Both the position numbers and the translations under genes were made by a program. DNA of 62,911 bases, counting the filler, from Kipferlia bialata (taxonomy: Eukaryota), in assembly GCA_003568945.1 (NCBI GenBank). It is 5 parts of 5 records of this genome, joined end to end, with 100 filler letters (N's around TTAATTAATTAA, not from the genome) between each part and the next. Parts side by side here need not be neighbours in the genome. Positions count along the whole stretch, not along the records: positions 36,166 to 46,990 come from BDIP01000501.1; 4 more parts are not named here. One strand, written 5' to 3'. The notes beneath the pieces were generated by a model that saw only the letters and a program-made list of their open reading frames with translations, was not told where the DNA came from and did no database searches. Positions 9,036 to 46,707 of the stretch are shown piece by piece. Position 1 is the stretch's first letter, and each line of letters starts with the position of its first letter.

Positions 9036-10414
9036 GACACAAGAGCATCACGTCTTTCTGGGTGCACTCCCTATCAATGCCAAAGGTGTGTGGTCTGTTG
9101 CTGCATTAATCACTCTGCCTAGACACTCACACGAGCGTGTGTGTTGTATCTTCCGTTTAGTTCAGTCACAGGGTTACTTCGGACCTATGTCTCTATCTCT
9201 ATCTCTATCCCTAACCCCAGGCTGACCGTGCCAACCCCCTCTCTAGGGGTGACAGTGAGAGGGTGTCCGAGGCAGAGGACATGAGGGGGAGGGAGGAGTC
9301 GACAGAGACCGAGGAAGGGGTCTTTGCGAGTGAGTCGGAAAGAGAGAGGGAGAGAGAGAGAGAGGGTGAGACTGGCACTGGGTTGGAGAGGGAAGACGGG
9401 AGAGAAGGGGAGAGAGAGGAAATGCAGCGCAAGAGAGACATATTTGTCAGAAGTGCCGCTGGGTACTGTGTGGCCACATTCCTATTAGGTGCGTATATGT
9501 GTATTTGGTGTGCTGTTGGTGGCCCAACTCATCATCTTGCCTCTCTCTCTCTCTCTCTCCCTGTCTCTTATGTCCAGGCATTGGCGACCGTCACCTTGAG
9601 AACCTCCTCCTCGACTATGAGGGCAGACTGTTCCACATCGACTTTGGGTTCATACTCGGTATGTGTCAGTCTATATTGTAACTGGTTACTTTACTGTATA
9701 CTGGCTAGGCATACTCTAGTGCACTTTCTTCGAGTCAATTGCCGATATTCTTCACCATCTGACCCCCAGGCCGTGACCCGAAGCCCCTCCCCCCGCCCAT
9801 GAAGATCAACAAGGACATGGTGCTTGCAATGGGTGGACCCACCAGCCAGGTACCCGCTTGTATATACAGTGACTTGTCTATATTTGTTTATGTATTACAT
9901 ATATGTGTCTGACCCCCAGGGCTATGCCCGCTTCCTGTCCCTGTCCTCCGAGGCCTATAACATCCTGAGGCGGAATGCAGGGACAGTGGTGGCCACGCTC
10001 AAGCTGTGCGCCGCAACAGGTATGAATGCCACATTGCAATCGCTTGAGTGTGCACATGTGTCTCCCTGACCCCCAGGCATTGAGACTCTGCAGGCCGAGG
10101 ACGCCTCGTCCTTCCAAGATACGGTGGGTAGATACAGACTGGAGCTCAGTGACGAGAGAGCAGGGGCACACTTCAGAACAAGGTGGGGCAGATACTAGTG
10201 TGTATCTACCCATGATTGGACATTGTGGACGTAAACATCCCCTTCTCTCTCTCTAACTGCCAGGCTGAAGCACAGTGTGGATGCCCTGTTCCACTTTCTC
10301 TCTCTCTCTCGTTCTCTCTCTCTGACTGCCAGGCTGAAGCACAGTGTGGATGCCCTGTTCCCTGTCATTCTGGACCACTTCCACAGGCTGGTCCAGAACT
10401 ACTGGAGGGCATGA
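9036..10414 (+). CDS. VPS34: Class III phosphatidylinositol 3-kinase, C-terminal part of the kinase domain only
   Basis: Spliced: [54 protein letters not shown]...AYNILRR...[11 protein letters not shown]...[14 protein letters not shown] and the C-terminal YW are Vps34 signatures. Confidence 0.92.
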
Positions 10415-10655
10415 GGTGTATCACTGTCACTCTAATTGAGCACTTGTGGAACAGCGATACTTATACTGAAACAGGTCCAGAACTACTGGAGGGCATGAGG
10501 ACGCTATCCTTTTAGTATAACTCTAATAGAATACAGCTCTTGGAACATGGTAACATTATGATTCTAGTTGTACAGATCATTCACTTCCTGACACGGTAAC
10601 AAAATGAATGCTTTTCTACAGTATGAAATTGTGCTCTCTAAGAGGCCACATGATG

Positions 10656-14781: not shown

Positions 14782-17240
14782 ATGGGAGATTGTACGTGGG
14801 AATGGTACCATTATATGTTGAGTTTCATGTGCCGCAGTAGAATATAAGTGTTTGTGAGCACATACCTGTTGTGTCTGTCGTTTGTGGTTGAGATTAGTGA
14901 CATCAAGTATGACGTGGTCAGGCAAGTCCCTCACCCCCAGGTGCTAACTGCCCAAGCAGAGGAACATGCGGAAAGGCCCAGGGTATGTGGTGTTGTACCC
15001 TATATGTGATGTTGACGGTCTAATAGCCCAGTCTCACAGGAATCAATAATCTGCTTCATTTGATGTGGGCCATTGATTATATTGATCCTTGTCTCACAAC
15101 CAGCCCAGGACGCCAAGCCCGACCCATGTGCTGGATGCCCTAGCAGGAGCGCCTGTGCCTCTGCTGGCAAGGGATGTGGAGGCAAGCCCCAGGTATGTGA
15201 GCCCTGTATCGATGTGTTGTCTCTTTGACACTGATGAGCATCTGAGACGCCACTCTCATGCATCAATGTACATCGACACAGTGTTATCTGTGCTACAATA
15301 CACTACCGTATCTTACCCACAGGAGCCTGCCTGTGAGAACGCCGGGTCCGACAAGTGTGCAGGGTGCCCCAGCAGGTAACCATTAGATGCATTAACTATT
15401 TATCGAAATACATATTGATTTCATATTTCTACTCCTGTCTCACCCTCAGGGCCACCTGTGCCAGTGCCAAGGGTGCCGCTGCCGCCGCCCCCAACCCCAT
15501 CCACGCCAGGGTCGCCGAGCGCTTCGCCAACGTCAAGGTACACATTCATATTACTCTCTCTCTATACATATACATATTACCTATCCCATTGTATGTTCTA
15601 CTATTTAGTGTTGCTCTGGTTCAGGGAACCAATACCCCCCCCCCCGTTGGCTAGTATGTCTATCTCTCTCCCTCACCCCAGAACGTGATTGTCGTGCTCT
15701 CCGGCAAGGGAGGTGTTGGCAAGTCCACCGTGGCCGCACAGCTCGCATACCACCTCGGAAGGGCCTATGGTGCCCAGGTATATTCTCTCGCTTCTGCGTA
15801 TATGTGTAAACTAGCCTCTCTCTCTCACTGCCTTTCGGTGCCTCCCCTTACCCCAGGTCGGTCTCCTTGACATCGATATCTGCGGACCCTCTGTGCCCAC
15901 CCTCACCAGCACCAAGGTATAGCATCTCTCTCTTTCTCTCCCTCCCCCCCGCTCTATCTCTGGTTCTTAACCCCTTACCCCCCTCTCTTCTATTCTTTCT
16001 ATCTCCCCCCTAGGGCCACGAGATCCACAACTCCGGCCTCGGCTGGGAGCCCGTGATGGTGAACGAGAACCTCAGCGTCATGTCCATCGGATACATGCTG
16101 GCAGACGATGACGCCGCTGTCATCTGGAGGGGACCCAGGTAGACAAGCGAATGAATATATACAGTGTATAAATATATATATATATATACATGTGTGTATA
16201 TCCCTCACTCCCAGGAAGAACAGCATGATCCAGCAGTTCGTGACCGAGGTGTGGTGGGGTGAGCTCGACTACCTCATCATCGACACCCCCCCAGGTACAC
16301 GCCTAGTGCATATATATACATTTATATAGCAACTATCTCATCCCCCCCCCCCAGGTACAGGCATAGTGCATATATATACATTTATATAGCAACTATCTCA
16401 TCCCCCCCCCCCTCACCCCAGGCACCTCCGACGAGCACCTGTCCATCCTCAACCTCCTCACCCCCTCCCTCAAGAACAAGCCCTGCGGAGCTGTCATCGT
16501 GTCCACCCCCCAGGTACACACACTGCACTAGCTGCCCCCTTTCTATCTCCCCCCACCTCTCTCACTCCCCACCTCCATTCACCCCCCTCTGCCTCTCTCT
16601 ATATCCCTCTCTCCATATATATCTCCCCTCACCCCCAGGAGGTGGCCCTTGCCGATGTGCGCAAGGAGATCAACTTCTGCCACAAGGTGACCCTGCCCGT
16701 GTTTGGTGTCGTTGAGAACATGTCTGGCTTCGTGTGCCCAGGCTGCAAGACTGAGACCACCATCTTCCACCCATCCAACGGAGGTGAGGAACAGTGTAGT
16801 GTGCATACCTCTCTCCCTCACTCTCTCTCCCTCACCCCCAGGTGCCAGAGGCATGGCCGAGCGCATGTCTGTGCCTTTCCTTGGCAGACTCCCCCTTGAT
16901 ATGCACCTGGTTAGGGCATCCGAGGAGGGCAGGTACTACTATCATAGTATATACACACACCTTCATCATGGATTTGTATTCTATCCACTGACCCCTCTAG
17001 GTGCTGGGCCGGTATGGTTGCCCAGATGTCCGACATCCCAGCCGACGAGGCTGCCCAGAAGGAGCAGGTATGGCCCATGTGCCTCTCTCTCTCTCTCTGT
17101 CTGTCTCTCTCCCCCCCCCCCTCTCACCCCAGGTCGATGACTTCTACGGCAACCCAGGTCTTAGGATGTTCTCCGAGACCGTGGACAAGCTCCTCATCAA
17201 CCTGCATGGCGTGGCCCCTGAGAAGGAGCAGGCCTGCTAG
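14782..17240 (+). CDS. NBP35: Cytosolic Fe-S cluster assembly scaffold, Mrp/Nbp35 P-loop NTPase
   Basis: N-terminal Cys motifs, [86 protein letters not shown] at 17238-17240. Confidence 0.95.
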
Positions 17241-18093: not shown

Positions 18094-18115
18094 CAGACGT
18101 GTGCTCTTCCGATCT
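18094..18115 (+). other. Illumina TruSeq adapter remnant
   Basis: CAGACGTGTGCTCTTCCGATCT at the contig start matches the 3' part of the TruSeq read-2/index adapter sequence. Confidence 0.95.
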
Positions 18116-18161: not shown

Positions 18162-21100
18162 TCAATCTCACCCGAGGACTCTCTTCATGGTCACTCTGGG
18201 ACCAGCTCCTTCCGTCGCGATGACTTTGGCACCAGCCTAGCCATCGACGCCCACTCTGACGGGTCTGCCCGACTGTTATGCGGCAGTCCCAATGGGGTGG
18301 GGGTGTTCACTAGGGGTGCTGGGGCAGACGGTGTGTGGGCTGAGGTGTCCTCCCCATTCAACAGTGCAGCAGAGGTGGTAGGGGTGGCTGTGTACGGGGA
18401 CTGGATGACAGCAGGTGGGTGCATATCTCTCACACTATCACTATCACACTATCACTATACACACATATATATGTGTATATATATGTGGGTACATTACGTG
18501 ACTGGATGGCAGCAGGTGGGTATATACACATGGATATGCATGGGAGTAAATTATGTCCTCCTATAGAGAGATATTCTGTATACATGTCATTCACAAATAG
18601 TATTAGATAGTATAGAGATGGCATATATATATGGCATACACATGGCATATTCTTACTTTGATATAGGGGGCAAGGCGGGTGGCAATATGTATGTGAGTAA
18701 CAGGACTTTCTTTTGTACATGTTTCTATGTATCCATAATCCATGTCAATATCTATCCGTATATATATATATATATATATATATCCATAGATTTATATCTA
18801 AGTACATATATACTGTATATATGCCTATATCTACTTCTCATCCCAGTCGGACCCAAGGGTGGACGCACCAAGTTGGCTGGGGGGTATAGGGCAGACTTCT
18901 ATGGAGACGTGTCAGCTGTAGCTCTTGGAGAGGTGGATGGCAAGGTATGTATATATATCCATTTGTTGCTATTAGTATGTGTATATATACTCTTTCATTT
19001 GTGTATATACTATAATTATGTCTCTATACCTGAGGTGGATGGCAAGGTATTATAGATAGTAATGTATATATATGTCTCTATACCACTTATATCTAGTCTG
19101 TACTAGAGGTGGGTGGCGCAGTATTAAGAAATGTATCCATATATGTCTGTGTGCTGGGGTGTGATCATAGCCTCCACCCTTTGTGCATTACATATTCTGT
19201 CTGTTTTGGTCCTACTATGACTCCCTTTCACCCCAGATGACAGCTGTGTATGTAGCGAAGGAGTATGGCAACTACGTTGCCTTGACCTGGCAGCAGTGGC
19301 CAGATGGATGGGAGTTCCATTCTAGGGTATACTATGGTAGGAGCTATAGTGCCCTTCTGCTACCCCATGACCACATGCTGTTTGGGGACACCCTCAGGCT
19401 GCACTCTCCCAACACCCTGACAGAGGAGGGGGACCCCATAGCAGGGACCGGTAGCTGGGTGGAGGTGGCTGAGATAGACACGGGCTGCTACTCCAGAAGG
19501 GAGTGGGCCTACTCTCCCTCTGTGGCTGCTGATACCTTCCTAGTGGTGGGTGACCCTTATGCAGAGGAGGCTGTGCAGTACCAGGGGGTAGTGGCTGTGA
19601 GGGAGATATCTGCCCCTGGTGTTGGTGGTGTGACTGCAGTGATCGAGGCCACCCCAGGCGAGGTGTGTGGGGAGACCTCTGTCACAGTCTCTCTGTCTGA
19701 CACTGCGTCTGGTGCATATGGGGGCGATGTGCTATCTGCACTGCTAGGCCTAGTGGTCACAGTCAACGGGGCATCCTTCCACGCACCCACACCGACGGGA
19801 GAGACAGGTACCTATATACGTGTGCGTCTATTCTGGGACAGTGTAGCTATATATGTGACATGGAGTAGAACATGAGCCATTGCAGCATTCTATCACATCA
19901 AGAGCTTGCTTCTTACAACAGGTGTGTATTCCGTGAGTCTTCCCCTGCCTAGCACCCCAGGCCCCCATTCCATCTCTGCTACCATCAACGGTGCCCAGGT
20001 TGGCAGCACCTCCCTCTCCCTCTCCCGTACCGTGGACGTGGCACTCTCCTCCCTCCACCTGCCGTTAGAGGTAGCAGTAGACACTCCATTCTCTGCTAAG
20101 GTTGTACCAAGGGATCACTGTGGGGCCATGCTCACCGGACTCTCCCTTACTCTCTCCACCGAGGCTGATGGTGTCATTAGTACTCTCTCAGATGCCTCTG
20201 GATACACAGTGTCGGGTCTGACCGTGCCCAGTCCCCAATCTTTGTGCTACACAGCCACTGTGGTAGGGTCTCCCTCTGACACTTGGTCCAACTGTGTATC
20301 TGGGGTGTCTGGTGTTGTCTCAGAGCTACCGACAGAGCCATACCTAGACGCGGATGTTAACGGAGAGTGGCTGGCCTTTGCCTATAGCGGTAGGGACGTG
20401 TCCCTGTTCCACATGCTTGATGGTCACTGGGTACCACACAGCACACTCCCAGAGACTGTGCACCTGTCATTCGCCAAGGACATATATCTGTTCACCCACT
20501 CACAGGAGACCCTCTCTGAGTATAGATATGACGCGGAGGGTGATGTGTGGACACTGATGTCGACAGGGCCTCTCAGAGGAGACAACTTTGCCACCAACGG
20601 AGACTCAGCTGTGGGGTTCTACAACTACGATGCCGATGACCACTCCTCCTGGGGCCAGTACGGACACGCCCTGGACAGGTACATGTATATGTATCTATAT
20701 ATGTATATCTATACTTGTGGATATGGATATATCATGTCCCCTTTCTCCTCTGCCGATTCCTTGTATATCGTCTGTCTGTCAACATATATGTCCCCAATGC
20801 TGTCTTGTCTCTCAGTCTCTCACCTCCAGGTATTACTCCGTCAGATTCGACCACCCTGAGGTAAGAGTGGTTTGCGTAGCAGAAGTATCCGACTGATATA
20901 CCCTTGAGTGCCAAATGCTGTCCTGATATTTCACCATTGATCATTCTTTACCATCTCAATTCCTGTATGTTTCTCTATCCAATACTGACACTCACTGCAG
21001 ACAAGCATAAGCGGGATAGACTCATACAACCGTATCTATGGGGCCGCTGCTGGTGCTGGGTGGTTTGTGCTGACGGCCCGCAACTCCTCCACATCTTCAT

Positions 21101-24100
21101 CCACGTCGTCTGACCGCCAAGCCGTGGTACAGCTCTACGAAGACGGACAGGTGTGGCGGGACGAACCCTATGTCTATTACAATGACCACACCGACTCACT
21201 AGGGGATGGTATAGCGCTCTCGCCAGACTCTCTGTATGTGGCGTACTCCAACACTGTATCGAGAGACCAAGGGAGAGTGATCTTGAGGAAACGCGCAGCG
21301 TGTGGATTTGGAGGCGAGGACTGGTGCTGGGGGTACGACGGAACCGTCTACAGCCCATCGAAGATGCCCTTTGCACGCTTTGGTGAGCGTGTGGTTATGG
21401 GTCAGGGTGTGGCGGTGGTGACATCTCTCGAGAACAGAGCCTACGTGTTCTCTGAGCCTGTGTTGGGTAAGGTCTGGGAGTACATTACACGTCTAGACGA
21501 CGTTGGTTCTGTGGAGACAGACGGCGTGTCCCTGCTCATTAGCTCTCCCTCTGTCTCCCCTGCGGGTACTAGGGTCATACCGCTAGTGGCAGAGGTTCCT
21601 GATGGGATTGTGGGTACCCTTGACACCAGCCTGCTCACCTATGCCGGCGAGTGTGCCGAAGTGACTGTGTCTGTGGTAGATGCAGAGGGAGACGCATACA
21701 CTCCCGACATAGCTACGCCCATCTATGGCCTCAGGGCTGTGTGGTCGAGTGCTGACAACGATGACATGGAGTGGTACGGGGCTGAGATCACTAGTGACCC
21801 TGGTGTGTATCAGATGAGGGTGTGTGCTCCAGACGAGGCAGAGGTGGCACACACACTGCATGTGTACATTGGCGCCACTCTGCTAGTTTCGGCTGATGTT
21901 ACCCCTTCGGACACGCCAGATTCTGCGCTCTCTGAGATATATGTACACCCCACACAGTCGGTAGGGGTGCCCATCTGGATTCATGTTGTCAACCATGCAC
22001 GTACATACCCGCGTCTATCTGTGTATAACGCAGATGGTGAGAGGGTGGGGGAGTGCACTACGGCGTCGACCGGGAGGGACTACTCACTCACACTGGGGGA
22101 GGAGGGGACATACACTGCCTCGCTGTACAGGTCATACTGCGACCCTAATGAGTGTTCCGCATACACTGTGGTCTCCTTCACAGTCTCTGCCTCAGTACCC
22201 TTGCATTCGGTCCCCATACCCTCAGAGTACCCGCAGTCCATCGTTGCGTATGGTGCTAGCGATGATTCTGACTGGTTGATTGTCGGTGTCTCTGACGTTG
22301 CGAGTGATACATCCGCATCTGCAGTCCTCGCCTTCCAGAGACTGACCAACACGTACTATCAGTTCCACTCGGCGTTTGATGTCGAGGGAGTGACAAACAT
22401 AGTACTCCATGAAGAGACAGTGGCGCTTGGTGTCTCAGAGAGAGTGGTAGGAGGGGTGGCTGGGGCTGGTGCAGTGTATGTACACAGACTAGACACGGAC
22501 TCAGACACCTGGCCTCTCCTGGCAGTCGTCGTCGCAGCAGACGAAGACCACCAACCCGTGGCTCCTGGTCTAGGGACAATCATTGGCGTCCATGATGACA
22601 CCCTTTTAGTGGGAGGCACCTCATGTCTCATCTACAGGGCTGACCTGTCAATGGCTAGTGATGTGTACGGGTCGATCATCCTCACTGAGGACGACCAGCT
22701 GTACCTCAAGCCCCCTTACTCCTCGAGAAAACCACTCTCGGCTGTGTCTATTGATGCCTCAGGAGGAGCCTTGGCACTTGGACTGTCGGCAGACAAGAGG
22801 GCTCTTCTGATGGACACGACCAACGGGGACACGTGGTGGGACGAGTACTCCCAGGTACCCATACTGATATGTTGACATATAGCTGTGGAATGTGGAGTGT
22901 GTCTGTATGGAACCCAATTTCACACCAGGAACTGTTTAGGAGTGCAAGCCACACCGGAGGATCACACGTTGCAGTGAATGGCGACAGACATTTAGTATTC
23001 TGGACATACGAGACAGAGGCCTTCTGGGCCGACTATGAGTATGCGGATGACACCAGTTATGACATTGGCAGCTACTACCTGGCCGCTGCGTCATACACAC
23101 CAGGTGCTAATGTGACTTATACACGTGATGTAGCCTTGGAGACGATCCTTGCCGGGCCAGTCAGGCAGGTTCAGAGTGAGGGAGATATGCTTGCAGTGAT
23201 CTACGAGAGTGGTACCTTGGATGTATTCACTATCCAAGAGGATGGTGAGGGGGGGCTGGTTCTGAGTGACCCTTTCCCCTTGTCTGAAGTGGTTGGCTCC
23301 TGTTCTCATGTAACTGCCTTGGAGGACACCCTCTATGTCCTGGCAGACGGGGTCCTCTCTGCCTTGCCATACTCCGCCCTTCCCACTGATTCAGAGGTCA
23401 CTGCCTCCCTCACCCAGCCTGATGTCTCTGGCGGCACCTGCTCCTCTAGTGATGTCACATTCAGGCTGTCTCTGGACGGAAGTCCCTATGGTGAAGTGGT
23501 AGATGTCAGTAGGCTCGGAGTCTCAGTCGGGGATCAACTATTCCCCGCTGTGTATACGGGAGGCTCCACCTATACCGCCACTGTCCAGTACCCAAGTGCT
23601 GGAATAACCTATGATCTGGAAGTGAAGAGAGGGGAGAGCGTGATCGCATCGTCTACAGTGACCCTTGAGGCCGGTGTAGTATCTGCCACCATGTCTAGAG
23701 TGCTTGTACCTGATGTCACTAGTGTCGCTGGGTTCTCCTTCGTGACCCAGCCGTCCAACGCTTGTGGGACTCTACTGCAAGGCCCTGATGTGTCTGTGAC
23801 TATCGAACAGTCAGGCACAACCCTTCAGACTCTCTCTGCCACTAGCGCCAGTGGCTACAGCGTTCACTCCGGTGCTCTCGAGGCTGGTCTCTGCACCATC
23901 AGGGCAGAGTGTGGGGGTGTCAGCTGGGGGGTCGAGGTTACAGTGGAGGAAGACACTGCCGTTGGCACCCCGCTTGCACGAGCAGACTCTACTCACTACC
24001 GCATAGTTTCCTCAGCTGCTGATGGAGAGTGGCTGGTGGTCTCCTACGAACAGCCACATAATGACAGTTGGAAGACCGATCGCACCGTCTCTGTCTACCG

Positions 24101-27100
24101 CTGTCCAGAGGGCAGTGCATCCTGTGTGTGGCACTCCTCCCTGACGTCACCCTGTCCATACCACAGTGTCTTTGGGGAATACATAGCCCTCTCAGGTGAC
24201 TGGATTGTGACGACACTGTACCAGAACCCGAGTGTCATTTATAACCGAGATATGAGGGAGATGCGAATGGCCGCATACAAGTACAACGCCGTGTCTGACC
24301 AGTATGAACTCCTAGACAGGCCTTTCCTCCGCTCGCCTACCACAGATGCCCTGAGTCCTCTAGTTGCGCTGTCAGAGGCGGATGATGGGGATTCTCCAAC
24401 GCTCTTCTTGTCATACAACCAGGTTGTCTATGAGTTCGCTATTGACACCAATAATGAGTGGCAATTTCTCAGCGGAGTGGTGGGTGAGTACACGAGTACA
24501 GATGCCTATACCATGGCTATTGGTGGACCGTCGGTGGCTTTAGCGTCTATTGGTGAGGGGTCTCTTGTGGTTTCATATGGAGACGTACAACAAACGATGG
24601 AGTGTCCAGACAGAGCAGAAGAGGCCACTTTTGGAACCTCAGTAGCCCTCAGCCCAAGTGGGCTCCTGCTTGCTGTCTCCAACGCTGACCGAGTTCATGT
24701 CTACTCCCTCGCTAGTGATGCATTCTCCTATGTCCACTCACTCCTTCTTCCTGAGGGATACGAGGTCTCGGACTATCAGGCCTTGGCCTTCGGGAGCGAG
24801 ACCCAGCTCGCCATTGATGTGAACACCTGCATATTCACAGCCTTCCTTGGGTCAGACCAATGGTATCTATCACACACCCCTACTTCCCTGCCGTCCTGTG
24901 TGGGTGGGTGTGAGGTGGGTTCAGGACATGATATGTTTGGACACAATGGACAAACCATCATTTCCATGCAGCGGATAGATGGAGGGAGGGGCGCTGTCTA
25001 TGGCCTACCCTTTGTCACCCCTCTAGTCCTACCCACCCTGACAGCCACTCTTGTGGAGGTGTCAGAGGTCGCTGAGTGTGTCCCATTCACTGTCGAGTTC
25101 ACTTTGTACCTTGAGGATGGGTCCCAGTACCGAGATGACGTCTCACCCTCCCTGTCTGCCACCTTAGGGTCAGATGTCTTCCACCCCTATTACCGCACAT
25201 CCTCTGGAGACTATGCTGTAGACCTGACTGTTTCAGCATCAGCGACCACTCCCACTGTGTCCACACTACTGGTGTCTCTACAGGGTGCGAGTGTGGCCAC
25301 TACTGACATCAGTGTTGTCAGTCAAGTGGCACCGTGTGCCTTAGAGTCTCAGTACCTGTATGATTACTCCACCTGGATAGAGCTCGCCCCCATCCATGAC
25401 ACGTGTGGTAGAGACTACACTGCAGAGGCTACCAGTGTGGTTGTGCGTGACCTTTCTGGAGAGACAGTCATGCAGTCGTCGCCATCCTCCTCCCTACGCA
25501 AGTCCCTTGACGACTACTTGTTGCAAGGGGAGTACACTGTGACTGTTACGGTGGATGGCACGGTTCAGGCGGGTCTGCCGCTGTACGTGTACAGAACTGC
25601 GGTTCCTGGACTCAATGGAAACCCCGATGTATACTGTTCTGCATCCAGTGTGACCCTGACATGGGCTGCACCCTCATTCCCAGCTGGTGGTGCTGTCAGT
25701 GCTAGTCTGGTACTGACAGACATGGCAACGGGGGTGGTGGTGGACTGGGACGCCGATGTCAAGTGGAGGCTCAACACCGACTACGTCTGGTCATCTGCTA
25801 CTCGGGATGGGGCTGCCTTTAGCCTGGGTGGTCTCACCGCTCCATCTGTTCTCAATAGCGGCCGCTTCGTACAGGTCTGGGTCTCAGGTGGACACCTCCT
25901 TTCAGAGGTCATCCCGGTCGGTATAGAGGTTGACCTAGTTGCAGGGGGGAGAGTGGTCCTGACCGGCGTTGATATGGATCCCATCACAGAGTCATCCAGC
26001 TGTGGGGACACACCTGTCTCTCTGTCTCTTCAGGGTGTTACCGTTGACACCCCTCTGGCTGCCGAGGTCGATGTCTGTGTAGAGTATGTGGGTGGGGACG
26101 GATGTGCAGACCTTTCACTGGAAGATGGCCGGTACTATGGGGTGCTCCGGTCCCCCGATGTCCCTGGGTCCTACGTCTTACGTGTATCCGCAAGTGGTCT
26201 GACCCTGATAAGTGACAGTACAGTGGATGTGGAACAGTCAATGTCCTCTTTCACCATCATATCGCAAGACAGCACCTTCTCAGAGAAGAGAGAGAGAGCG
26301 TACTTCACTGTAGAGCCAAGGGATGGGTGCAACAATCCCATGGCCAGTGAGGGTACTGTCATTGTCCGTGACTCCGATGGGACTGCTTACAGGTGCAGCA
26401 CAGAGAGTGGGTATACAGATGATGCGTGGGCTTGGTCCTTCTATCCCTACGATGAGTCTGTATACACTATTGAGGTGTATCCTGGAAGCACTGGTTCGAC
26501 CGACCCCATTGCGGAAGCAGTCCACTATGTCGGTTGGACAGTCACTGTAGACGATTCCACCTCCTACAACGTCGGCCCAGGCTCTGGCATCATTGGGTTA
26601 CCCGAGAGAGGCCCAGACGGTTTACAGGTGATGCTAGAGCATGGGTCCCAGGTGACCTGCAGCGTAGTGCTGTATGAATGCAGTGGGGCACCTCTAGTCT
26701 TGCCAGACGTGTCTGTCTACTGGGGCCACCTGAAAGAGGAGGAAATCCAACTTAGTTACGACGAGGAGACAGAGACCTATCCAGTGGAGATACCTGTCTG
26801 GTCAATTGCCGATGCATACTATGGAGACGGGCTCAACGTAGCCATTTCAGGTACACGACGGGTATTCTATTCTAAGTCGGAGCCTTAATAGTGTGTGTCA
26901 CTTCCAAGTCTTACACCAGGTGTACAGCTCTTTAGGTCCTCTGAGTCCTACTTCGCTGGGGTCGAGGTTGCTGGGTCTCGAATTGCTCGTATCAGAGCAG
27001 ACTCTATGATCATCTCCGCACCTGATAATAACTTCGACTTTGCACTCTACGACACGAGTGGTGATATGGTGTACAGTGCAGATGTTGCAGAGGAGTGTGT

Positions 27101-28811
27101 GGGCGGGTGGGGCAGTGACCTCTCCTTACCTGCGTCCTTGAGCGACAATGGAAGCCAGTACACCATCTCGGTACCACGTCCTTCGGAGGTAGGCACTTTC
27201 ACCTTCAACCTGGCTCTTGGTGGTGTTGTGGTGTACTCGAGGGACTACGAAGTGATAGCGCCATACGATCCCGCTAGTTCCCGTCTTCTATTGCGCGACA
27301 CGGGCTATGTGAGAGATCATGCAGTGGCTGGGGAGCCCTTCGACGTATCTGTTCAGCTGGTTGATGCCAACGGTGGGTACGCCAGCGCTGAGACAGTCAG
27401 TATGGTGGTGTCGGACCCAGAGGGAAACAGTGTGTCGGTGGTATCGACAGTGGCATCAGGCTCTAGTGGTTACTACGAAGGGGAGGTCACCGTGCCTTCA
27501 GCCGGGGAGTACACAATTAGTGCTGAAGTTGCGGGCAGCACTCAACCTCCTATCAGTGACTCACCTCTAACTGTGTATGCTGGTGACTTTGGCCTAGACA
27601 TTGGACACTACGGCACTATGTGGATGGCTGTCCTAGAGAGTGGGTCCTCCCTTGTCGCCCCCACTGCGGCTCTTCCAGGTACTGACACTGACCCTAGCCG
27701 GCTTTATACCGCTGCTGTGAGTTTTGTCGATGCAGAAGGTCTCTATCCTGACTCGTCTATGCGGAGAGCCACTGTATCCGTCGACTTCTTCTCTGTTGAT
27801 GCCGTTGGAGACATGGAAGACGTTGTTGCGTCCCTGTCCTGCGACTATGATCAGTCTGGAGACGGTGTGCTCACCTTCACTGGGTATGCCCCACAGGATA
27901 TGGCCCAGTACACCCTGGCTGTCTCTGTTGGCGATGCTGCTCCGCTCTTCACCCAGGGTGTGGCCGTGTCTGTACCACTGACAGTCGGGGGCGTTGATGT
28001 CGCAGTCGCCGGTGTATCATGCGAGGAGGGCGATGATCCCCTTGAGATCACTCTCACGCAGGCCAGCTCCTCCCAGACTGTCACGTTTGTTGTCGATGCC
28101 TTCAGTCCAGACTTCACTGATAGCACGCCATTCAGCACCGGTAGTAAGGAGACTGTACCGTGTGAAGTTGACCTTAGCGATCACATCTGCGGCACGTGGA
28201 ACGGGTCTGGGTGTCAGCACCCAGAGTATCAGGGGGTTGGTGTGTACATGATGGAAGTCACAGCCCCTAACGTGTCGTCTGAAAGAACTCTCTTGTTTGA
28301 GATTAGTTGTGACGATGAGCCCCTGTTCTCCCAGAGTGTACAAGTGGCCCCTACCCCTACAGACCCTGAGTCCTCTCTTCCTATTATGCCCATAGCAGTT
28401 GGGGCGGTTGGAGTTGTGGGTGTGAGTGTGGGTCTGTGTGTGTGCTGCTCTGGGGATGACGAGGATAGTGTGAAGGAGGAGGAGGAGGATAAGAGTCAGC
28501 AGAAACAGGAGGAGGGTGTCCACGTGCCCTTCCCCCAGCCAGTACCCGTGGGACTGATACCCATACAGCTTGTGCCGGTGGAGCAGATGCCAGTCCCTGG
28601 GTTGGTGTATCCTCCCTCTGACCTCTCCAACCTCTCTCATCTCTCTGGTCCTGCCCCAGTGGCACTGGACCCCGGCCTGGGTGACGCTGGTGACACTGGT
28701 ACTGACACTGGTACGGAGGGGTGTCCGTCAGAGGCCGAGACTGAGGCTAGTCAGGTCACTCTGTACTGCAGTGATGTGGAGGGAAGCGAGACAGATACGG
28801 TGTCTGAGTGA
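18162..28811 (+). CDS. Giant type-I surface protein (about 3000 aa) with FG-GAP-like propeller repeats and Ig/filamin-like domains, 5'-truncated
   Basis: Repeated blades (DDFGTSLAI, SLGDGIALSPD, FGERVVM, FGEYIALSGDW, FGTSVALSPSG, GAGAVYVH) alternate with T/V/S-rich beta-sandwich segments (PRDxCG, VDANG). C-terminal TM IAVGAVGVVGVSVGLCVCC. Joins ORFs 19183, 19906, 21067, 22833 and 26895 via short introns. Confidence 0.8.
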
Positions 28812-29382: not shown

Positions 29383-32300
29383 ATGATTCTATTAGTCCTC
29401 GCCCTACTCTTGGCCGTACTGGTGGGAGGCATTGTGTGCCTATGCCTGTACGGTAGGTTCAAGCCGTCCCCCTATCTGGTTGAGTTCCGGTCCCCCTCCT
29501 TTGCCTCTGCCTCCTCCTCCCGAGGGAGGGTGGGCGACACAGGGCTCCTCACCCACATGGAGTGTGCACAGACACTCTCAGAGGACCTTGCAGACGTATA
29601 CGTCAGGGGCAAGAGGAAGGAGAGGCTTCGCGTGTATGTCTCACCCGCCTTTGACCCCCGCATCAGACGGTACTCATACAGCCCATACCGGCTGTCTGAC
29701 AAGCTCTCTCTCTCCCTGGCATGGAGTGCTGATGTCACCCAAGTGACAGTGGATGGTATGGAGGTGCGTATGGAGGCCAAGGTGGAGCTCCTGGCCTCCA
29801 ACCACGGGCATGAGGTGGAGATTGTGGGTAGGACTGCAGATGGCAGACAGGCCTCATACTCTGTGGTCATCATGCCCTGGTTCATGCAGCCCATCTGCAA
29901 TGAGGTGCACCAGGTGGACCAGGTGGCACCCGGCATCATGACAGGTAGGGGGTGCATAGCCTGTGTACAGGAGGATCTCAATACTACTGATACTGATACT
30001 GATACTGCACCCGGCATCATGACAGGTGGGTTGCACAGGAGGAGACATGGGTATTGGCTTATCTCTTTGCCCCCCCCCCTCCCCCACTCTACCTTCCTTC
30101 TCTCTCTCTCCCTCTCCCCCCCCCCCGATGTGTCTGTCTCTCTCACTGCCATCTGTCTCTGAGTTATCACTGGTCTCTCTCTCTACCCCCCAGGCATGAG
30201 CTCTGTGTGCACTGTGCTGAAGCCATTCGGCATGAAGAGGATGCTGTGGAACATGCTCAACACAGTTGGGTTCAGAGGTAATTATGTGACATGTGATTAT
30301 ATATCCCAGGGCACTGATCTTCAGGCCTCCTGCGTATACTCAAGAGCCGCAGGAACAGTCCCTTCATGGATATTGGTGACCCCTTGGTGCAGAAGTACCT
30401 GGACCCAAACAGAGTGTACTGTCCGGGTATGACACACATACTCGTGTATAAACCAACATCTCTCTCTATATATGTACCCATGTATATTTGGATGTATGTG
30501 TGTATTCACTGGTACCTTGTGTGTGTCTCTCCCCCCCCCCATACCTCTCTCTGACCCCAGGCTCTGCCTTTGTGCTGGACATGTACGGCACACCCCTGCA
30601 GTACACAACAAGGCACGAGGGCAAATGTTTCTCTTCTAGCATTCTCAGTGCCACATATATAGACATACATATGTTCGTATACAGATTCGTTTAGAGATGG
30701 ACTGAATGGGACTATATGTATGCATTGCTTACAGTCAGAGACCTTCGCATGATCACCATACCCTATGCTCTACCCAGTGGCACCGGGGGTACCCTGGTGC
30801 CAGAGACAGGTGTGTAGTATAATATAACAGTATAACTCAATTCGCGTGCTAGACTGTACAATACCGTTATACATTCTCGTGCCTGAGACAGGTAGGTACA
30901 CAGTATGCATTATCTCTCTGTACTTCGAATTAATGCAACCCCCCCACCCTCCAACCCCCCAGGCTTCTTGTACAACACACCTGTGCAGGATGACCTCCTC
31001 AACTTCGCAGAGGCACCCTCCCGCACATTCATAGCAAACAGGTTTGTGTTGCATTGTGTGTATATTCACTCTTCATGTCTCCATTACATGTCTTTCTCAC
31101 TAAGTATGTTACCTCTTATACCTCTAACCCCGCCAGGTCTCTAGAGGGTGCTGTGGAGCTACCCCGTGTGCTTGAGCAGCATGACGACTCCCACGAGCTG
31201 TTCATCACCCCTAGGGGCACCCTCATGACCACATACTACAGGATGTACGAGAAGGGACACGTCCTGAACAACGGGGAGGTGGGGCTGAGAGTATGAACCC
31301 TTACCCATTTGTCTTCCCGCTGTCTCACCCTAGACCCTCGACCTAGCCGTAACCTCGTGCTACCTGGTGGAGAGGGACACTGAGGGACAGGTGGTGTGGG
31401 AGTGGGACAGCATCGACCACATCTACCCCGACCCAGACCCTGCCGTCTGCTACCAGCCCACAGAGGGGTTCAACTACCACGACTACTTCCACTGCAACGG
31501 GGCAAGGTGGGTATATATACTATTGTCAATGGTATTATATATATATATATTATACATTTCGTTTTATGTTTATGACTACCACGACTACTTCCACTGCAAC
31601 GGGGCAAGGTGTGTTTATGAATGCATGCAATGTTGTATATATGTGTAGTGTATGACTGCTTTCTTTCACTGCCACAGTTACACAAAGTCTCAGTATAATC
31701 GCGTGATGCATGCATGTTGCTATGATTCTACCACTGCTCTGACCCCCAAGGTTCAATGAGACGGACCCCAACGAGATGCTGATCACTGGTAGATACCTCA
31801 GGGGGTGCATCAGTGTAGACTATACAACAGGTGTACACTCCATATACACAGCCTCCTGACCTGTTGTATATATATTGTATACATATATTGAATACATATT
31901 GAATATATATGTATTATCGTGTCAATCTCCCTGTCTCTTACCCTCTAGGCGCTGTCAACTGGATCCTGGCCAACCCCTCCAACCCCCTCAACCAGTTCAC
32001 ATTTGTCAACGACCCCCTCGAGGGACCTGGCTCCTGCCATGCCGGACTACTCAATGGCAACACTCTGCTCCTGTTCGACAACGGTATGTCACCATATATG
32101 TATCCACAGTTGTTGCAGTAGAGTGTGTCTCTAGCCGTTGGTTATGCCTCACCCCAGGTGACTACCTGACCCCTGAGTACAAGGAGGGAGAGGAGGGATG
32201 CAGGCTGTTTGGCAGGGCCCCCACCCCCTGTGTGCACACCTACAGCAGGATGGTGGAGTACACCCTAGACATAGAGGCACGCACTGCCACATACGTCAGG

Positions 32301-36217: not shown

Positions 36218-36372
36218 ATCTCTCTCTGTCTCTCTCCCCCCCCTCAGCCATACACTCTCTTCTTTCTCTCCTGTCCCTACTGCCAACGTGTCCATTTTCT
36301 GCCTCTCTCTCCTTCCAGGGAACCCCCCTCTCTTTCTCCTGCCTCTCTCTTTCTCTTGTCTCTCTCTTGTAG

Positions 36373-39300
36373 GGGCAGCTATGTTACTGGCCCTGGACAC
36401 AGAAGAGCTCTCTCTCTCTCTCCCTCTCTCAGCCCCAGGGCACCCTCCGCAACAGACCCAAGACATGGCACATGGGGGGCATGGCAGGGGTCATGGCACA
36501 GACAGCTCTCAACAGACAGGTGGGTGGGTGTCCCATACACTAATACACTCACATGGATATGTGTAGTCCCTGGGAACGACTGACCATGGACGTATATACC
36601 CCACGTCTATGATGTCCCCTCCCACCCCCCAGGTGTATGACGCCTCTGTCTCCCCCTTGATCCCCTCCATTGTGGAGGGGGACACGGCATGCTGCTTCTG
36701 CTACGGACACACAGGTGCTAACACACAATATCTATATTCTTATCAATAGCACAGATATGTCTCCTCTCATACCTAGAGGTGCTGACAAGACCCGCACCAT
36801 CATTGGATAAGCAGTCTGTGTATTTAAGACTTATATTGATATTTACTGCACATATTTGTCTGATTCAGGTGCTGCCAAGACCCACACCATCATAAGTAAC
36901 TAAAGTGCAATATGATATACTATACTAAGTGTATAGCTATGTATTCTACCACATACTAACTTAGTATTACTAAGCATCACTAAGTGTTACTAAGTATTAC
37001 TAAGTACATAGGTGCCGGCAAGACCCACACCATCATTGGATACAGTACCATACCTTACTCTACTAAGTATAAATATCTCTATATATTTCATACTACTTCA
37101 TACCATATACTAAGTATAGGTGCTGGCAAGACCCACACCGTCATGGGCTACAGGGGTGAGCCAGGCCTGTACTCCCTGGCCGCAGCTGATCTGTGTCACG
37201 CAATTGGGCAGAAGGTATTAGTATTGTAGCATATGGTAGGTGGGGGGCAGGTTCAAACAGTACCAATCAATATTCCCCCCCTATCAACTCACAATCACAT
37301 GAGACATAGGTTTAGCACACTACCAGAGAGGTATATTTTCCCTCCGTAACTCTCTTATGTCTCGGTCTCACCCCAGAATGCTGGCCTTTTGCTCCAGATC
37401 AGGTTTGCAGAGATATACAACGGGAAGGTATGGTGACTCTCTCTGCTCTCTTCCTCTCCCCCCACCTTGGGGTACTGACCATATACACACAGTATTCATT
37501 GATGCCATCTATACTGACCTCCAGGTGTATGACCTTCTGCGTGGCAGGGCTGAGTGCACAGCCAGACAGGCCGAGGACGGCAAGGTATGGGTATATGGAC
37601 TACACTCTGTATGGATATATTGTGTACATGTGTACATGTATGTGTTGACAGGCCGAGGACGGCAAAGTATATGTATATGGACTGTACTATGTATGACTAT
37701 GTGTTATAGAGTAGTATTTGTATCTGTTGACAGGTCAAGGACGTCAGTTTCATGTATACAAGACATACTATGCATCACTCATCGCCACTTCCCCCACCCC
37801 TTAGGTCCACATCCGGTCTGCTGCCCTCAAGGACGACAAGGGCCGTGTCACAGTACATCCCCTCCATGCACTGACCACAGACACACAGGAGGGTATGTCA
37901 CTTGTGTATATATATATATATGGTATATGTATATAGTATACATATATAGAGAGTGTATCAACTCTGCATCCCCTGCATGCACTGACCACAGACACACAGG
38001 AGGGTGGGGGGGGTGGCTGAATAACAGGCACAGAATGTATACAGAATGTAGTATACAATCCCTCCCTCTTATTCCAGGCCTCGATGCCATTGTTTCCCTG
38101 GTCATTTTCTATAGATAATATATAGCGTACGTGTTATATGCATATACAGTGTATATACCTTATCCCAGGCCTCGATGCCATTGTGGCCCAGGGCATGGCT
38201 GTCAGGAAGGTCGGGTCCTCCTCCCTACACGACGAGTCGAGTAGGTCACACGCCTTGCTCTACATAGAGGTATGGACAGATGCACATGTGCTACCGTCCC
38301 ATATCACGAAGTGTATTTGAGTAGGGAGGCTTGTCCCTCCCTCTCCAATCCATATTCGTAGTGTTGGTGTCCGTGTGTGGTGTTACTGTTAGTTGTATAA
38401 TGTGAATAGCACTACCGTATCTCTAACCCCTAAGGTTGTGAACCGTGCCCTGCTGTCACTGAGGGAGTCCATCATAGCACAGGAGGGCGAGGTGGCAAAG
38501 GCAGGTGGGTGGAGGGTGGTGGATGTCTATATATCATATAGTTGAGGTGGATCTCAGTACGGGATACTATTGGATGTTTGTGTAGTCGTCTGCCTGTACT
38601 TCACACACTGTCAATTGGCTACATTGTTGCCTCCTCACCCCCCAGGCCTCCCCTACGATGACCTGTATCTCAAGGAGCAGCACAAGATGTACAAGCTGGA
38701 TGAGGAGACAGGGCAGGTGCGGGGATACTGTACAACCACCCCAAACGGGCAAGTATGAATGTCTTGTTCTCACTCTACCAGTCCCATACTAACCCTAGTG
38801 GGGCCCTGCACCCCTGGCAGACTATGACTCAGAGGGTCTGGCAAGGCTCAAGGTGGGTCGGTACTGACGCCATCTCTACCAGTCATCTAGAGCGTAGTGG
38901 ATGTAGTTGTGTTAGCAGTTTACTGTATACTATCCTCTCTGTACACTGACATCAAGGTCGTGGTTGACAGAGAGGCAGCTATCCTGGCTGACTTGCAGGC
39001 TCAGGAACAGACAGTCGTGGAGGTAGGGGAATCCCTATATAGTCTCTCTCACACAGACTAATAGTATCACTCAATACACTAATACCATCAGGAGTGCCGT
39101 GCCCTTGGCCACACTGTGGGTGGCACCCTAGTGCTGATAGACCTGGCAGGGGCAGAGTATGGGATCACGGGCGGTAAGCAGGTAATACCTTGGTTTCTAT
39201 TAATACGCGTTGCATTCTATGACTATGTATGGGTTTGTACCTGACCTATAGGTGACCCCCAAGCAGAGAAGAGAGGGACAGGAGATCAACAAGACACTGC

Positions 39301-39791
39301 TGGCACTCAAGGAGTGCATCAGGGGAATGCACAGGTTAGAGGCACATTGGATGTATATCGACATTGCCACTTTTCTGCTAGAATTCTCTCTTTCGCCAGT
39401 GATGGTAGCCGTTCTTTCCGATCTTTCCCATGTTTCTGTGTCTATCCCTCTAGATACTCTCTATCTCAATTCCTCGACATATATGTGTGTATCTTTCCCT
39501 GACGCAGTGGTGCCCCCCATGTCCCCTTCAGAAACAGCACCCTGACACTGGTACTCAGACAGCACCTACAGGTACAGCATGATACATGTGTAAGTGTGTC
39601 TGCAGTGTGACTACATATCCACTGATACTCCACTATCTGTAGTGTCACCAGACGTGGCCTAACCTGTCTAACCCTAGGCCGAGCACAGTCGCACTGTCAT
39701 GGTGACCAACATATCCCCCTCTGCCAAGCACCTCCAAAAGACAGTCAACACTCTGCAGTATGCTGCACTCGTCGCAGATGCCAGTAAGTGA
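36373..39791 (+). CDS. Kinesin motor, divergent kinesin-13-like, 5'-truncated
   Basis: YGHTGAGKTHT P-loop, FAEIYNGKVYDLL, HDESSRSHA (switch I), LIDLAGAE (switch II), EINKTLLALKECIRGM, HVPFRNSTLTLVLR, RTVMVTNISP; TGA at 39789-39791. Confidence 0.9.
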
Positions 39792-44390: not shown

Positions 44391-46707
44391 CTACTCTAGA
44401 GAGACCATTCGCTTAGGGTGCTCCATAGGAATCCACACATGGAAGATACATGAACACCAGTAGCAGCGTATATACCCATACCTGCTGTCTGACAGTCTGA
44501 CCATGAACCTCCCCCCGTCGAGCTGTGCTGCCCAGCCCAGCCACATGGAGGTGTGGCAGCAGAGGGTCCACTCCCCAGTGACCCAGTCGTATACCCAGAT
44601 GCCGTAGTAGGCACCGTCCCTGCTGGACTTCCTCGCCTTCTGGGTTCAGAGAGAGAGAATAGGAGAGAGGGGAAGAAGGGCTGGACAGAGAGTATGTGTT
44701 CCTTAGATGGACATAGAGACAGATGTACTATAATAGAAAATTGAATGAACATACCTTGGTCAGCAACCCCCACACGAGGGATTGGGTAGGGGACACGGCT
44801 AAGGCACGCACAAGTTCCTCACAGCTGCTTGGAAGTTGCCCCGAAGCAGGCACCTCAGCATAAGTATGTATATATACAATGATATGTGGATATACTGACA
44901 TCTCAATATATATACACTGAGAGTGATATACATAGTGGGTCATGATTGCCTGAAACGTGTATCCCTAGACTCTATGTGCTACACACTGTACCTCCTTCCA
45001 TCCTTCCTGGAGACTGAACTGCTGGGATATCCACCCCTCCTTCCTGTTACGGATGGTCCCAGACAGACGAAGCAGCCTGGGGTGAATGGAGTGTGGTGTG
45101 ATCAACACCAGCTTAACGGAGACTGAGCCCACCACCCACATCCCTGCCTACCCTATATCATGCACTGTACTGTATGCACACACTCACCTGTCCCCGTTGG
45201 TCATGTGGAACACCCTCAGGAACTGGTCTGCCTCCAAATCCTCGTGGTCATCCTCATCCTCATGCACAACACGCCCAGCCCGGCAACGCCAGCGCCCACT
45301 CTCCCCCTCCCCCTCCCCCTCAGCGGCGGGATCGAACTCCATCGTGTGTCCATCCTGGCCCAGGAATATGAGGTGGCCCCCCAGGACAAAGAAGTTCTGA
45401 GTCAGGTTGAGAAAGAATCAGAGACCCCTTCACTTAACATATATATGCTGGCATATGTATACACAGAAATCTCACATATCATACAGTACACAACACACTA
45501 TATTCTATATCATAAAATACACAAAGAGAGTTTTTAATATTCTATATCATATAAAATACACAAAGAGAGTATTAAATATTCTATATCATATAAAATACAC
45601 AAAGAGAGACAGAGAGCATGGGATTGGTGAAGCACACACCGAGTGTCTCCTGGGGTCCCAGTCCCCCTCTGTCTTGGGAAGGGTGCCATACACACCTGGC
45701 AGTGAGGACGTGACAGGGGGTGACATGATACAAGGGTGAACTGCATTCAAAGCTACCTTACATCTATGACACAGGCAGGTGTCCATGCTATAATACAGTG
45801 TATAACACAAATCCAGAGGAAGAGAGAGAGAGAGGTAGGAGAAGGAGTCGACATACCAATGTTCTAACACCCCTACATCTGATACCCCAACAGCCTACCT
45901 ACATCATCGCACTGGCAATACTTGACCGTCAGAGGGGCCCTCCCTCCCCTGAGGATCTTCTGTCTGCAGAACAGCACCTGGGGTGGGGAAATCAGTATCA
46001 GTACCAGTACCAGAGGGACAATGCAACGCACACTCTCAATGTCACGTGAATGTGTAGGTGTCTACATGTTGAGTGTAGAGAATCTCCCGAGCATAATACT
46101 CAATACATGGGTCTCAGATACCGAAGCTCACCCCTTCTAGTTTGGCCTATGAAATGACATTCATATTGAGACATACTTCGGAGGGGGGGGGTAGAGAGAG
46201 AGAGAGAGTGCCTACCTTATCGTCCATTCTCAGAACAGTGGCTGTTGCCCACTTGTCGTAGGACAGGTCGATACCCTTTCTGCGGCACACAAGAGTGGCT
46301 TCAGTGCCTGTGGCGTCATCACGAGGGGTGATGTGATACACACCGGCGTCTGGGATAAGATACAGCCAGGGGAAGGGGGAGAGAGAAAGAACGGAGATAC
46401 AGACAGCGTGCCAATGCCATATACATATACATATACATTTGACGCACGAGTACATATGATACCAATATGAGGAAACTTGAAAGAGGTGGAACTATCTCAT
46501 AAATGCCTCTCCTCAGTATCTGATACTGATACTGCATTGAATTCACTCCGTACCATAGTTGATGACGCTGTCGTTCCCCATGAATGTAGGTCTGAACCTT
46601 CTACTCTTCATTGGCGTGTCCAGCTCAGGGGCCAGGGTCAGGGGCTCCAGGCTCAGGAAGTAGTCGTGGTTGTTGAGGAAGTCATCGAGGCTCAGGGTGG
46701 GGTACAT
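44391..46707 (-). CDS. Hypothetical protein, possibly kelch-like beta-propeller; 5' end uncertain
   Basis: Spliced exons include FFVLGGHLIFLG, MEFDP...W and IWVYDWVTGEWT, which resemble blade-end motifs. Confidence 0.5.
45501..45608. repeat. Intronic tandem repeat, about 3 copies of a ~38-nt unit
   Basis: TATTCTATATCATA(T)AAATACACAAAGAGAG occurs three times. Confidence 0.9.

What the first reader, a model, noticed from the sequence alone, without database searches (positions are those of the whole stretch)
36715..37150. Kinesin P-loop intron built from serial decayed copies of the P-loop exon start
Seen: the intron splitting T-G|A-G-K-T starts GTGCT, the same as the next exon. It holds three copies of AG|GTGCxGxCAAGACCCxCACCATCAT (36777, 36867, 37010) ahead of the true acceptor at 37119. 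Copies 1 and 2 have the P-loop Gly codon mutated (GAC, GCC) and soon hit a stop. Copy 3 is intact and in frame, 108 nt upstream, so its use would duplicate GAGKTHT. Inference: the clearest trace here of intron origin or growth by repeated AGGT duplication; each copy is also a potential recursive splice point.
Basis: partly seen in the sequence, partly recalled or inferred. Interest (0 to 1): 0.7.

Follow-up and report, generated by a model that had tools for sequence, protein, structure and literature searches.

The report
Echoed exon starts inside kinesin intron
An intron in a protist kinesin gene holds three decayed copies of the next exon's start, likely left by small tandem duplications that lengthened an older intron; about one predicted intron in ten nearby carries a similar echo, so this likely shows intron growth, not intron birth.

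Summary
The 405-nt intron (36715-37119) of a Kipferlia bialata kinesin-13-like gene holds three copies of the next exon's first 25-33 nt (22-23 of 25 identical). A putative RNA contig joins only the outer sites.

Growth is supported; origin is not. A divergent paralog has an acceptor at the same codon with an AG|GG junction and shares two more intron positions. The spacers resemble each other, not exon 2. The likely history is one acceptor-spanning duplication, then two intronic re-duplications.

AGGT is not required: 13 of 125 predicted introns in the window echo an adjacent exon end, and 2 of 3 acceptor-side cases are AG|GC. Recursion is unshown, and the inner AG|GT sites lack the usual branch-point spacing.

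Three oddities remain. The intron's first 14 nt match the spliced junction at 12 of 14. Exon-derived echoes stay 95-100% identical beside barely alignable intron DNA. Five of 14 echoes are in frame and stop-free (1.8 expected).

This is a known kind of event (human F7 intron 7, potato RdRp). The scan noted a similar pattern before in a sea-urchin gene.

The parts
36439..39791 (+). Kinesin-13-like motor gene, 15 exons found here (5' part missing)
   Evidence: equals P0001 over 362 of 362 aligned residues; Pfam PF00225; best solved relatives KIF2C
36633..36714 (+). Upstream exon, ends in the first base of the P-loop Gly codon (phase 1)
36715..37119 (+). 405-nt GT-AG intron, removed outer site to outer site
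   Evidence: X2 contig joint, skip 405; P0001
36715..36778 (+). T0: likely the original-sized intron unit (64 nt). Its first 14 nt match exon-3 head (6) plus exon-2 tail (8) at 12 of 14
36779..36811 (+). Copy 1 of exon head; GAG acceptor, Gly to Asp, stop at codon 11
36812..36868 (+). T1 spacer, homologous to T0 (22 of 30; shuffle p 0.007; 2 of 124 other introns as good)
36869..36895 (+). Copy 2 of exon head; branch-like A at -6, Gly to Ala, then stop
36896..37011 (+). T2 spacer, resembles T3 (0 of 124 other introns as good; shuffle p 0.047); expanded by a 10-nt minisatellite at 36959-37006
37012..37044 (+). Copy 3 of exon head; 29 of 33 identical, differences synonymous or conservative; branch-like A at -9
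37045..37119 (+). T3 spacer with the used acceptor (branch-like A at -7); with copy 3 it forms a 108-nt stop-free frame
37120..37214 (+). Downstream exon beginning the rest of the P-loop
37565..37748 (+). Second echo in the same gene: 82-nt head-to-tail repeat spanning the exon-5 donor; the first donor is used
37856..38184 (+). Third echoed intron of the gene: donor-side copy (36 of 37) and AG|GC acceptor-side copy (16 of 16)

Best explanation
The intron holds three decayed copies of the next exon's start, likely made by short tandem duplications across the acceptor of an intron that likely existed already, and a putative RNA contig shows splicing from the outer donor to the outer acceptor. 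Inferred history: one duplication of about 100 nt copied the intron tail plus about 33 nt of exon head. Two later duplications inside the intron (T0+head, then head+T3) multiplied that single copy. The first event was probably tolerated because the unit is in frame and would lengthen a variable loop just after an intact P-loop. The inner acceptors then drifted off the -7/-8 branch spacing typical of this genome, so the distal one is chosen. The same local process is seen at about one in ten predicted introns of the window, mostly on the donor side, and needs no AGGT.
For: Shown: copies and outer joint. The paralog's genomic piece has an acceptor with -8 branch spacing directly before its Gly-Ser-Gly-Lys codons, and it shares both ends of exon 4 (tables 5, 5c, 7). 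The copies encode Ala like this gene, not Ser like the paralog, so they are likely younger than the intron position. All three copies share ATC against the exon's GTC, and two share two more sites; the close paralog P0002 has Ile there. T0~T1 and T2~T3 are alike, T1~T2 and T1~T3 are not. Spacers are 27-36% GC against 60% for exon 2 and do not match it. Window-wide: at 12 of 14 or better, 9 donor-side and 3 acceptor-side echoes, 0.03 and 0.11 expected. An annotation-free scan gave 22 pairs, 18 tied to exon ends, against 0-2 in 10 shuffles. Echo introns have median 220 nt against 84. Two donor echoes are plain head-to-tail repeats. Branch A lies at -7 or -8 in 87 of 101 introns with the motif; used acceptor -7, copies -10, -6, -9. 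Indels occur at the post-P-loop site in KIF2C and in locus L037.
Against: The intron's first 14 nt match the rotated spliced junction at 12 of 14, the best of 125 introns (0.016 expected), which pure expansion does not predict. The used acceptor scores below all 124 others in a window matrix, and a TAG 2 nt before copy 1 scores higher and has -8 spacing yet is not seen used. The paralog evidence is two short genomic contig pieces with 30-letter loose ends; parallel gain at an AG|G site is not excluded. Tail homologies are modest (p 0.007 and 0.047, six comparisons). In several donor echoes the exon part is 34 of 34 or 36 of 37 identical while the intron part barely aligns, which uniform neutral decay does not predict. 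Only the kinesin model has protein or RNA support; the other introns are my predictions.
Confidence: 0.7

Rival explanations
1. Intron renewal: the position is old, but today's donor is exon-derived. An earlier, outermost unit was lost precisely (deletion between AG|GT repeats, or a reverse-transcribed partly spliced RNA), leaving a decayed exon-head copy as the donor.
For: Only 1 of 125 introns shares 5 nt with the next exon start (0.15 expected); the first 14 nt match the spliced junction at 12 of 14; the donor is weak (above only 15 of 124). Metamonads are reported to lack NHEJ (PMC8516963, passages).
Against: Beyond 5 nt the intron start aligns to the heads poorly (3 to 28 of 124 other intron starts score as well). 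A 14-nt donor-spanning micro-repeat of CA-rich sequence explains most of the match. Only three bases (GCT) are then informative.
Confidence: 0.12
2. Intron birth by duplication of an exonic AGGT segment (Rogers model), then growth.
For: AG|GT junction; the 12 of 14 match at the intron start; no intron at this codon in 78 of 80 outside loci.
Against: The paralog has the same position with AG|GG. Spacers do not match exon 2. A 14-nt duplication would be too short to splice and out of frame. AG|GT junctions are ordinary here (28 of 125). The outside loci are biased to intronless sequence.
Confidence: 0.07
3. The inner sites are used: as recursive steps, or copy 3 as a minor alternative acceptor adding 36 residues after an intact P-loop.
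For: Regenerated donors score 7.3-7.7, above the real donor's 6.0. Copy 3 is stop-free and its differences are synonymous or conservative. Five of 14 echoes are in frame and open, 1.8 expected, p about 0.025, post hoc.
Against: No inner joint in the X2 contigs (contigs drop rare forms). Inner acceptors have off-pattern spacing or GAG. The final mRNA junction regenerates the same donor, as do 28 of 125 junctions, so re-splicing must normally be held down; the EJC does this in flies (PMC8184009, abstract).
Confidence: 0.1
4. Whole micro-exon duplication: the ancestor had a 41-nt exon closed by a second intron, the copies are remnants of that exon, and the second intron was later lost from this gene.
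For: The paralog's genomic piece leaves the mRNA sequence at the place matching 37160 with a GT; copy 3 ends 8 nt short of that place and continues with the same four letters.
Against: It needs a precise intron loss plus an 8-nt deletion; a four-letter match is weak; copies 1 and 2 end differently.
Confidence: 0.05
5. Assembly artefact.
For: The only DNA run that holds the stretch may be the window's source.
Against: The copies are diverged, with longest exact match 18 nt, and one contig spans all of them with 0 differences.
Confidence: 0.02

Closest known systems
Human F7 intron 7 37-bp VNTR spanning the exon 7 donor (PMC1557585; abstract read)
   Same: Tandem repeats cross a splice junction and leave silent pseudo-sites in the intron; the outer site is used. 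This matches the 11 donor-side echoes here.
   Different: F7 is donor-side with identical units; the P-loop case is acceptor-side with decayed 90-143 nt units in a short-intron protist.
Potato RdRp intron gain by duplication across an intron-exon boundary (PMC4974935; abstract, passages and Results section read)
   Same: The same geometry: intron tail plus exon head duplicated.
   Different: In potato a cryptic donor in the duplicate made a new exon and intron; here no such use is seen and the old intron seems only to have grown.
Rogers AGGT tandem-duplication intron gain (PMC3443670 and PMC2891723, passages; ATP2A1 case PMC3265369, listing only)
   Same: AG|GT at the junction; the intron start resembles the exon start.
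   Different: The model needs purely exonic duplicated DNA ending in a copy of the upstream exon tail, and a new position. Neither holds here.
Recursive splicing at AG|GT ratchet points (listings; PMC8184009 abstract)
   Same: Juxtaposed AG and GT inside an intron that would regenerate a donor.
   Different: Described mainly for long animal introns; here 405 nt, off-pattern branch spacing and no intermediate seen.

Membership tests
Junction-spanning tandem duplication (intron expansion) | Copy of an exon end with its splice dinucleotide lies in the adjacent intron | tested here: met
Junction-spanning tandem duplication (intron expansion) | Intron-side flanks are duplicated too (head to tail) | tested here: inconclusive
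   T0~T1 p 0.007 and T2~T3 p 0.047; clear in 2 of 11 primary donor echoes; combined p 0.0002 over 13 pairs, 0.009 without those two
Junction-spanning tandem duplication (intron expansion) | Outer sites are used, mRNA unchanged | tested here: met
   X2 contig joints, skips 405 and 220 (RNA status is a guess); P0001
Junction-spanning tandem duplication (intron expansion) | Intron position older than the copies | tested here: met
   Shared with a Ser-type paralog while the copies are Ala-type; rests on short contig pieces
Rogers-type intron gain | AG|GT at the spliced junction | tested here: met
   shared by 28 of 125 junctions
Rogers-type intron gain | Intron ends in a copy of the upstream exon tail | tested here: not met
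   Spacers match exon 2 no better than other exons; only the first 14 nt of T0 do
Rogers-type intron gain | Intron begins with a copy of the downstream exon head | tested here: inconclusive
   5-nt identity, weak beyond
Rogers-type intron gain | Position absent from close homologs | tested here: not met
   Paralog has an acceptor at the same codon
Recursive splicing | Inner AG|GT regenerates a donor | tested here: met
   Matrix scores 7.3-7.7; sequence only
Recursive splicing | Inner AG is a competent acceptor for this genome | tested here: not met
   Branch-like A at -10 (with GAG), -6, -9 against -7/-8 in 87 of 101; a prediction from motifs
Recursive splicing | Intermediates or inner lariats in nascent RNA | not testable with these tools
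   Only assembled contigs were offered; they show the outer joint alone
Kinesin motor (PF00225) | Motor-domain profile above the curated cut-off | tested here: met
   218.6 bits against 29.3; nearest solved structures are kinesin-13; no tree was built, so the subfamily label is a resemblance

The most novel reading that the evidence does not exclude
In Kipferlia, exon ends are echoed into about a tenth of introns by a junction-biased process and then kept near-identical to the exon (local gene conversion, or use of the inner sites). The P-loop intron is a case of intron renewal: an old position whose donor is now exon-derived, rebuilt unit by unit. A genome with about 125,000 introns would then hold thousands of natural tests of splice-site choice and of how old introns replace their own sequence.
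Probability: 0.17. Interest if true: 0.72.

Novelty: new member of a known kind. Interest (0 to 1): 0.36.

Why it matters
As a single intron it is a clean example of growth by duplication across a splice site, not of intron birth. The wider pattern matters more. If the window is typical, duplicated exon ends account for about a third of the longer introns (11 of 32 at 150 nt or more) in an intron-rich fornicate whose intron history is open (PMC5874029, passages). The 11 to 3 donor-to-acceptor ratio (p 0.057), the tight branch spacing and the excess of frame-keeping echoes make splice-site choice in a reduced spliceosome testable from existing genome and RNA data.

Tried and rejected
No whole genome is held for the window, so all counts come from 62.9 kb. 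The run search listed no holder on record as RNA; X2 is a guess. Contigs were laid on 36250-37880 only, so the later kinesin junctions rest on P0001 and other genes have no RNA check. The Ser-type paralog was not among the 120 listed near-length proteins or among shorter ones (5 candidates, none at E 1e-15), so it was not placed on a tree. A first self-trained gene finder collapsed into one 294-exon gene and was dropped. The second was run on 19 hand-set regions; 2 were dropped as unreliable and 2 exon ends were edited by hand, leaving 125 introns. Three hits at 11 of 14 were dropped as likely chance and one at 10 of 14 was added from the tandem-repeat table. The first repeat scan missed known cases through its filter and was redone. 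Splicing copy 3 as a micro-exon into the AG inside exon 3 is out of frame by one base; micro-exon donors after copies 2 and 3 score below all real donors. Seven outside loci flagged as broken were contiguous on inspection. The lack of intergenic repeats (0 in 11,566 nt) was not taken as proof of junction targeting, since unanchored pairs would fade faster. Five answered paper searches bear on prior report; no listing showed this pattern for Kipferlia, but most hits were seen as listings only and subscription papers and supplements were not seen. Gao and Lynch 2009 is not held.

Full report
Gene and organism. The window is a string of short contigs joined by N spacers. The finding lies in a 15-exon kinesin gene at 36439-39791. 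Its product equals P0001, labelled Kipferlia bialata kinesin-like protein, over 362 of 362 aligned residues. It scores 218.6 bits on PF00225; the nearest solved structures are kinesin-13. Relatives at 28-54% identity occur in chytrids, oomycetes, Dysnectes and Carpediemonas (best 120 of 360 listed). The K. bialata genome has 124,912 GU-AG introns (PMC5874029, passages).

Observation. Three copies of the exon-3 start lie at 36779, 36869 and 37012, each after an AG. They match the exon and each other at 22-23 of 25 nt. Copies 1 and 2 have the Gly codon changed and stop early; copy 3 is in frame and open for 108 nt. A contig of run X2 (RNA status guessed, depth 18.4) joins 36714 to 37120 and four other kinesin junctions; no joint to an inner AG is listed. 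Contigs drop rare forms, so this shows the main form only. A contig of run X1 spans 36250-37880 with no difference; it may be the window's source.

Age of the position. One search also caught a divergent paralog. Its X2 contig reads Thr-Gly-Ser-Gly-Lys across the junction. A genomic piece in X1 has an acceptor with -8 branch spacing right before those codons, so the junction is AG|GG, at the same base. Another piece shares both ends of exon 4. I infer that these pieces belong to the same paralog. The copies encode Ala, like this gene and P0002, so they likely postdate the paralog split and the intron likely predates it. Outside the organism, 72 of 80 loci had the motif and all read through; 6 of the other 8 also read through and 2 did not cover it. 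That set favours transcripts and intron-poor genes, so it neither shows nor excludes deeper sharing.

Anatomy. All copies carry ATC where the exon has GTC; copies 1 and 3 share two further sites. Spacer T0 matches T1 (22 of 30, p 0.007) and T2 matches T3 (0 of 124 other introns as good, p 0.047); T1 matches neither T2 nor T3; T0-T2 is borderline (p 0.04). T2 is longer through a 10-nt minisatellite. The simplest history, inferred, is one duplication across the acceptor and two later ones inside the intron. The spacers are AT-rich and unlike exon 2, against an exonic AGGT duplication as defined in PMC3443670 (passages).

Why the distal acceptor wins. In 101 of 125 predicted introns with a CTNA motif near the end, the A lies at -8 (46) or -7 (41); no acceptor has G at -3. 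Fused branch and acceptor signals are described for relatives (PMC6679479, passages). The used acceptor has -7. The copies have -10 with GAG, -6 and -9. Against this, the used acceptor ranks below all 124 others in a matrix, and a TAG two bases before copy 1 fits the spacing. Use of copy 3 would add 36 residues just after an intact P-loop, where KIF2C and locus L037 show insertions (the name loop 5 for this site is recalled). That may be why the first event survived.

Recursion. Splicing to any copy would rebuild a donor scoring 7.3-7.7, above the real 6.0. The finished mRNA junction scores 7.3 too, and 28 of 125 junctions are AG|GT, so the feature is common. In flies the EJC blocks such re-splicing (PMC8184009, abstract). 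Nothing here shows stepwise removal.

The window-wide pattern. I predicted genes in 19 regions, dropped 2 and edited 2 exon ends, leaving 125 introns. At 12 of 14 matches, 9 introns hold a copy of the upstream exon end (0.03 expected) and 3 a copy of the downstream exon start (0.11 expected). After dropping three weak hits and adding one, the set is 14 events in 13 introns: 11 donor-side, 3 acceptor-side (p 0.057). Two of the three acceptor cases are AG|GC. An annotation-free scan found 22 repeat pairs: 18 tied to exon ends, 3 shared splice motifs, 1 microsatellite, none wholly in 11,566 intergenic nt; shuffles gave 0-2. Echo introns are longer (median 220 against 84).

What expansion does not explain. 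First, the intron's first 14 nt match exon-3 head plus exon-2 tail at 12 of 14, best of 125 (0.016 expected). A CA-rich 14-nt donor repeat explains most of it, but an exon-derived donor is not excluded. Second, exon-derived parts are 246 of 258 identical over 13 donor pairs (biased upward by how they were extended), while the intron parts align clearly in only 2. One series fits neutral decay (1 of 20 against 18 of 62 mismatches); cases of 0 of 34 and 1 of 37 do not. Third, 5 of 14 echoes are in frame and open against 1.8 expected (p about 0.025, post hoc); for three donor-side cases I cannot say which donor is used. Metamonads are reported to lack NHEJ (PMC8516963, passages), a possible but untested source of local duplication.

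Comparison. Silent pseudo-sites from a junction-spanning repeat are known from human F7 (PMC1557585, abstract). The same acceptor-spanning geometry made a new intron in potato (PMC4974935, Results read). Exonic proto-splice duplication is described in Drosophila (PMC2891723, passages). Searches showed no listing of this pattern for Kipferlia; supplements were not seen.

Verdict. Real and well seen. It is best read as growth of an older intron, one case of a common local process. Birth by AGGT duplication is unlikely and recursion is unshown. Interest 0.36; the genome-wide version deserves a follow-up.

Noticed in passing
window 12117-12204, 13006-13087, 13967-14111, 16286-16412, 18399-18521, 18930-19125, 29926-30030, 30794-30893, 31473-31618: Donor-side echoes of exon ends in five other predicted genes (including a 3-beta-HSD-like and an NUBPL-like gene); periods 58-104 nt; most copies keep a good GT donor.
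   Followed up: yes
window 10243-10361: Acceptor-side echo (AG|GC, 49 of 50 identical, period 69, in frame and open) in a PI3/PI4-kinase gene.
   Followed up: yes
window 10390-10500: 27 of 27 copy of the last coding bases and stop codon, 84 nt downstream; the spacer begins near a GT and ends in AG, so it may be a 3' UTR intron.
   Followed up: partly
window 29945-30025, 18945-19046, 31507-31608: Echo units that are in frame and stop-free; the inner donor could be the used one, adding an internal protein repeat. No RNA check.
   Followed up: partly
all 14 echoes: No period under 58 nt, close to the shortest introns (about 50 nt), though the scans reached 25-35 nt.
   Followed up: no
X1 record 2, place matching 37160: The paralog seems to have an extra intron 41 nt into this exon that the window's gene lacks: a gain or loss between paralogs.
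   Followed up: no
P0002: The 875-aa paralog carries an unrelated N-terminal part (PF04097) before the motor; possibly two genes merged by annotation.
   Followed up: no
window 18094-18115: Contig start looks like a leftover Illumina adapter (recalled, no call tested it).
   Followed up: no
window 18162-28811: Very long predicted membrane-anchored protein with exons up to 3.9 kb, unlike the short-exon genes around it.
   Followed up: no
window 45500-45608: 39-nt tandem repeat, 2.8 copies, 94% matches, wholly inside a predicted minus-strand intron.
   Followed up: no
L018, L042: Homologs read through TAA and TAG in frame, suggesting a ciliate-type code.
   Followed up: no
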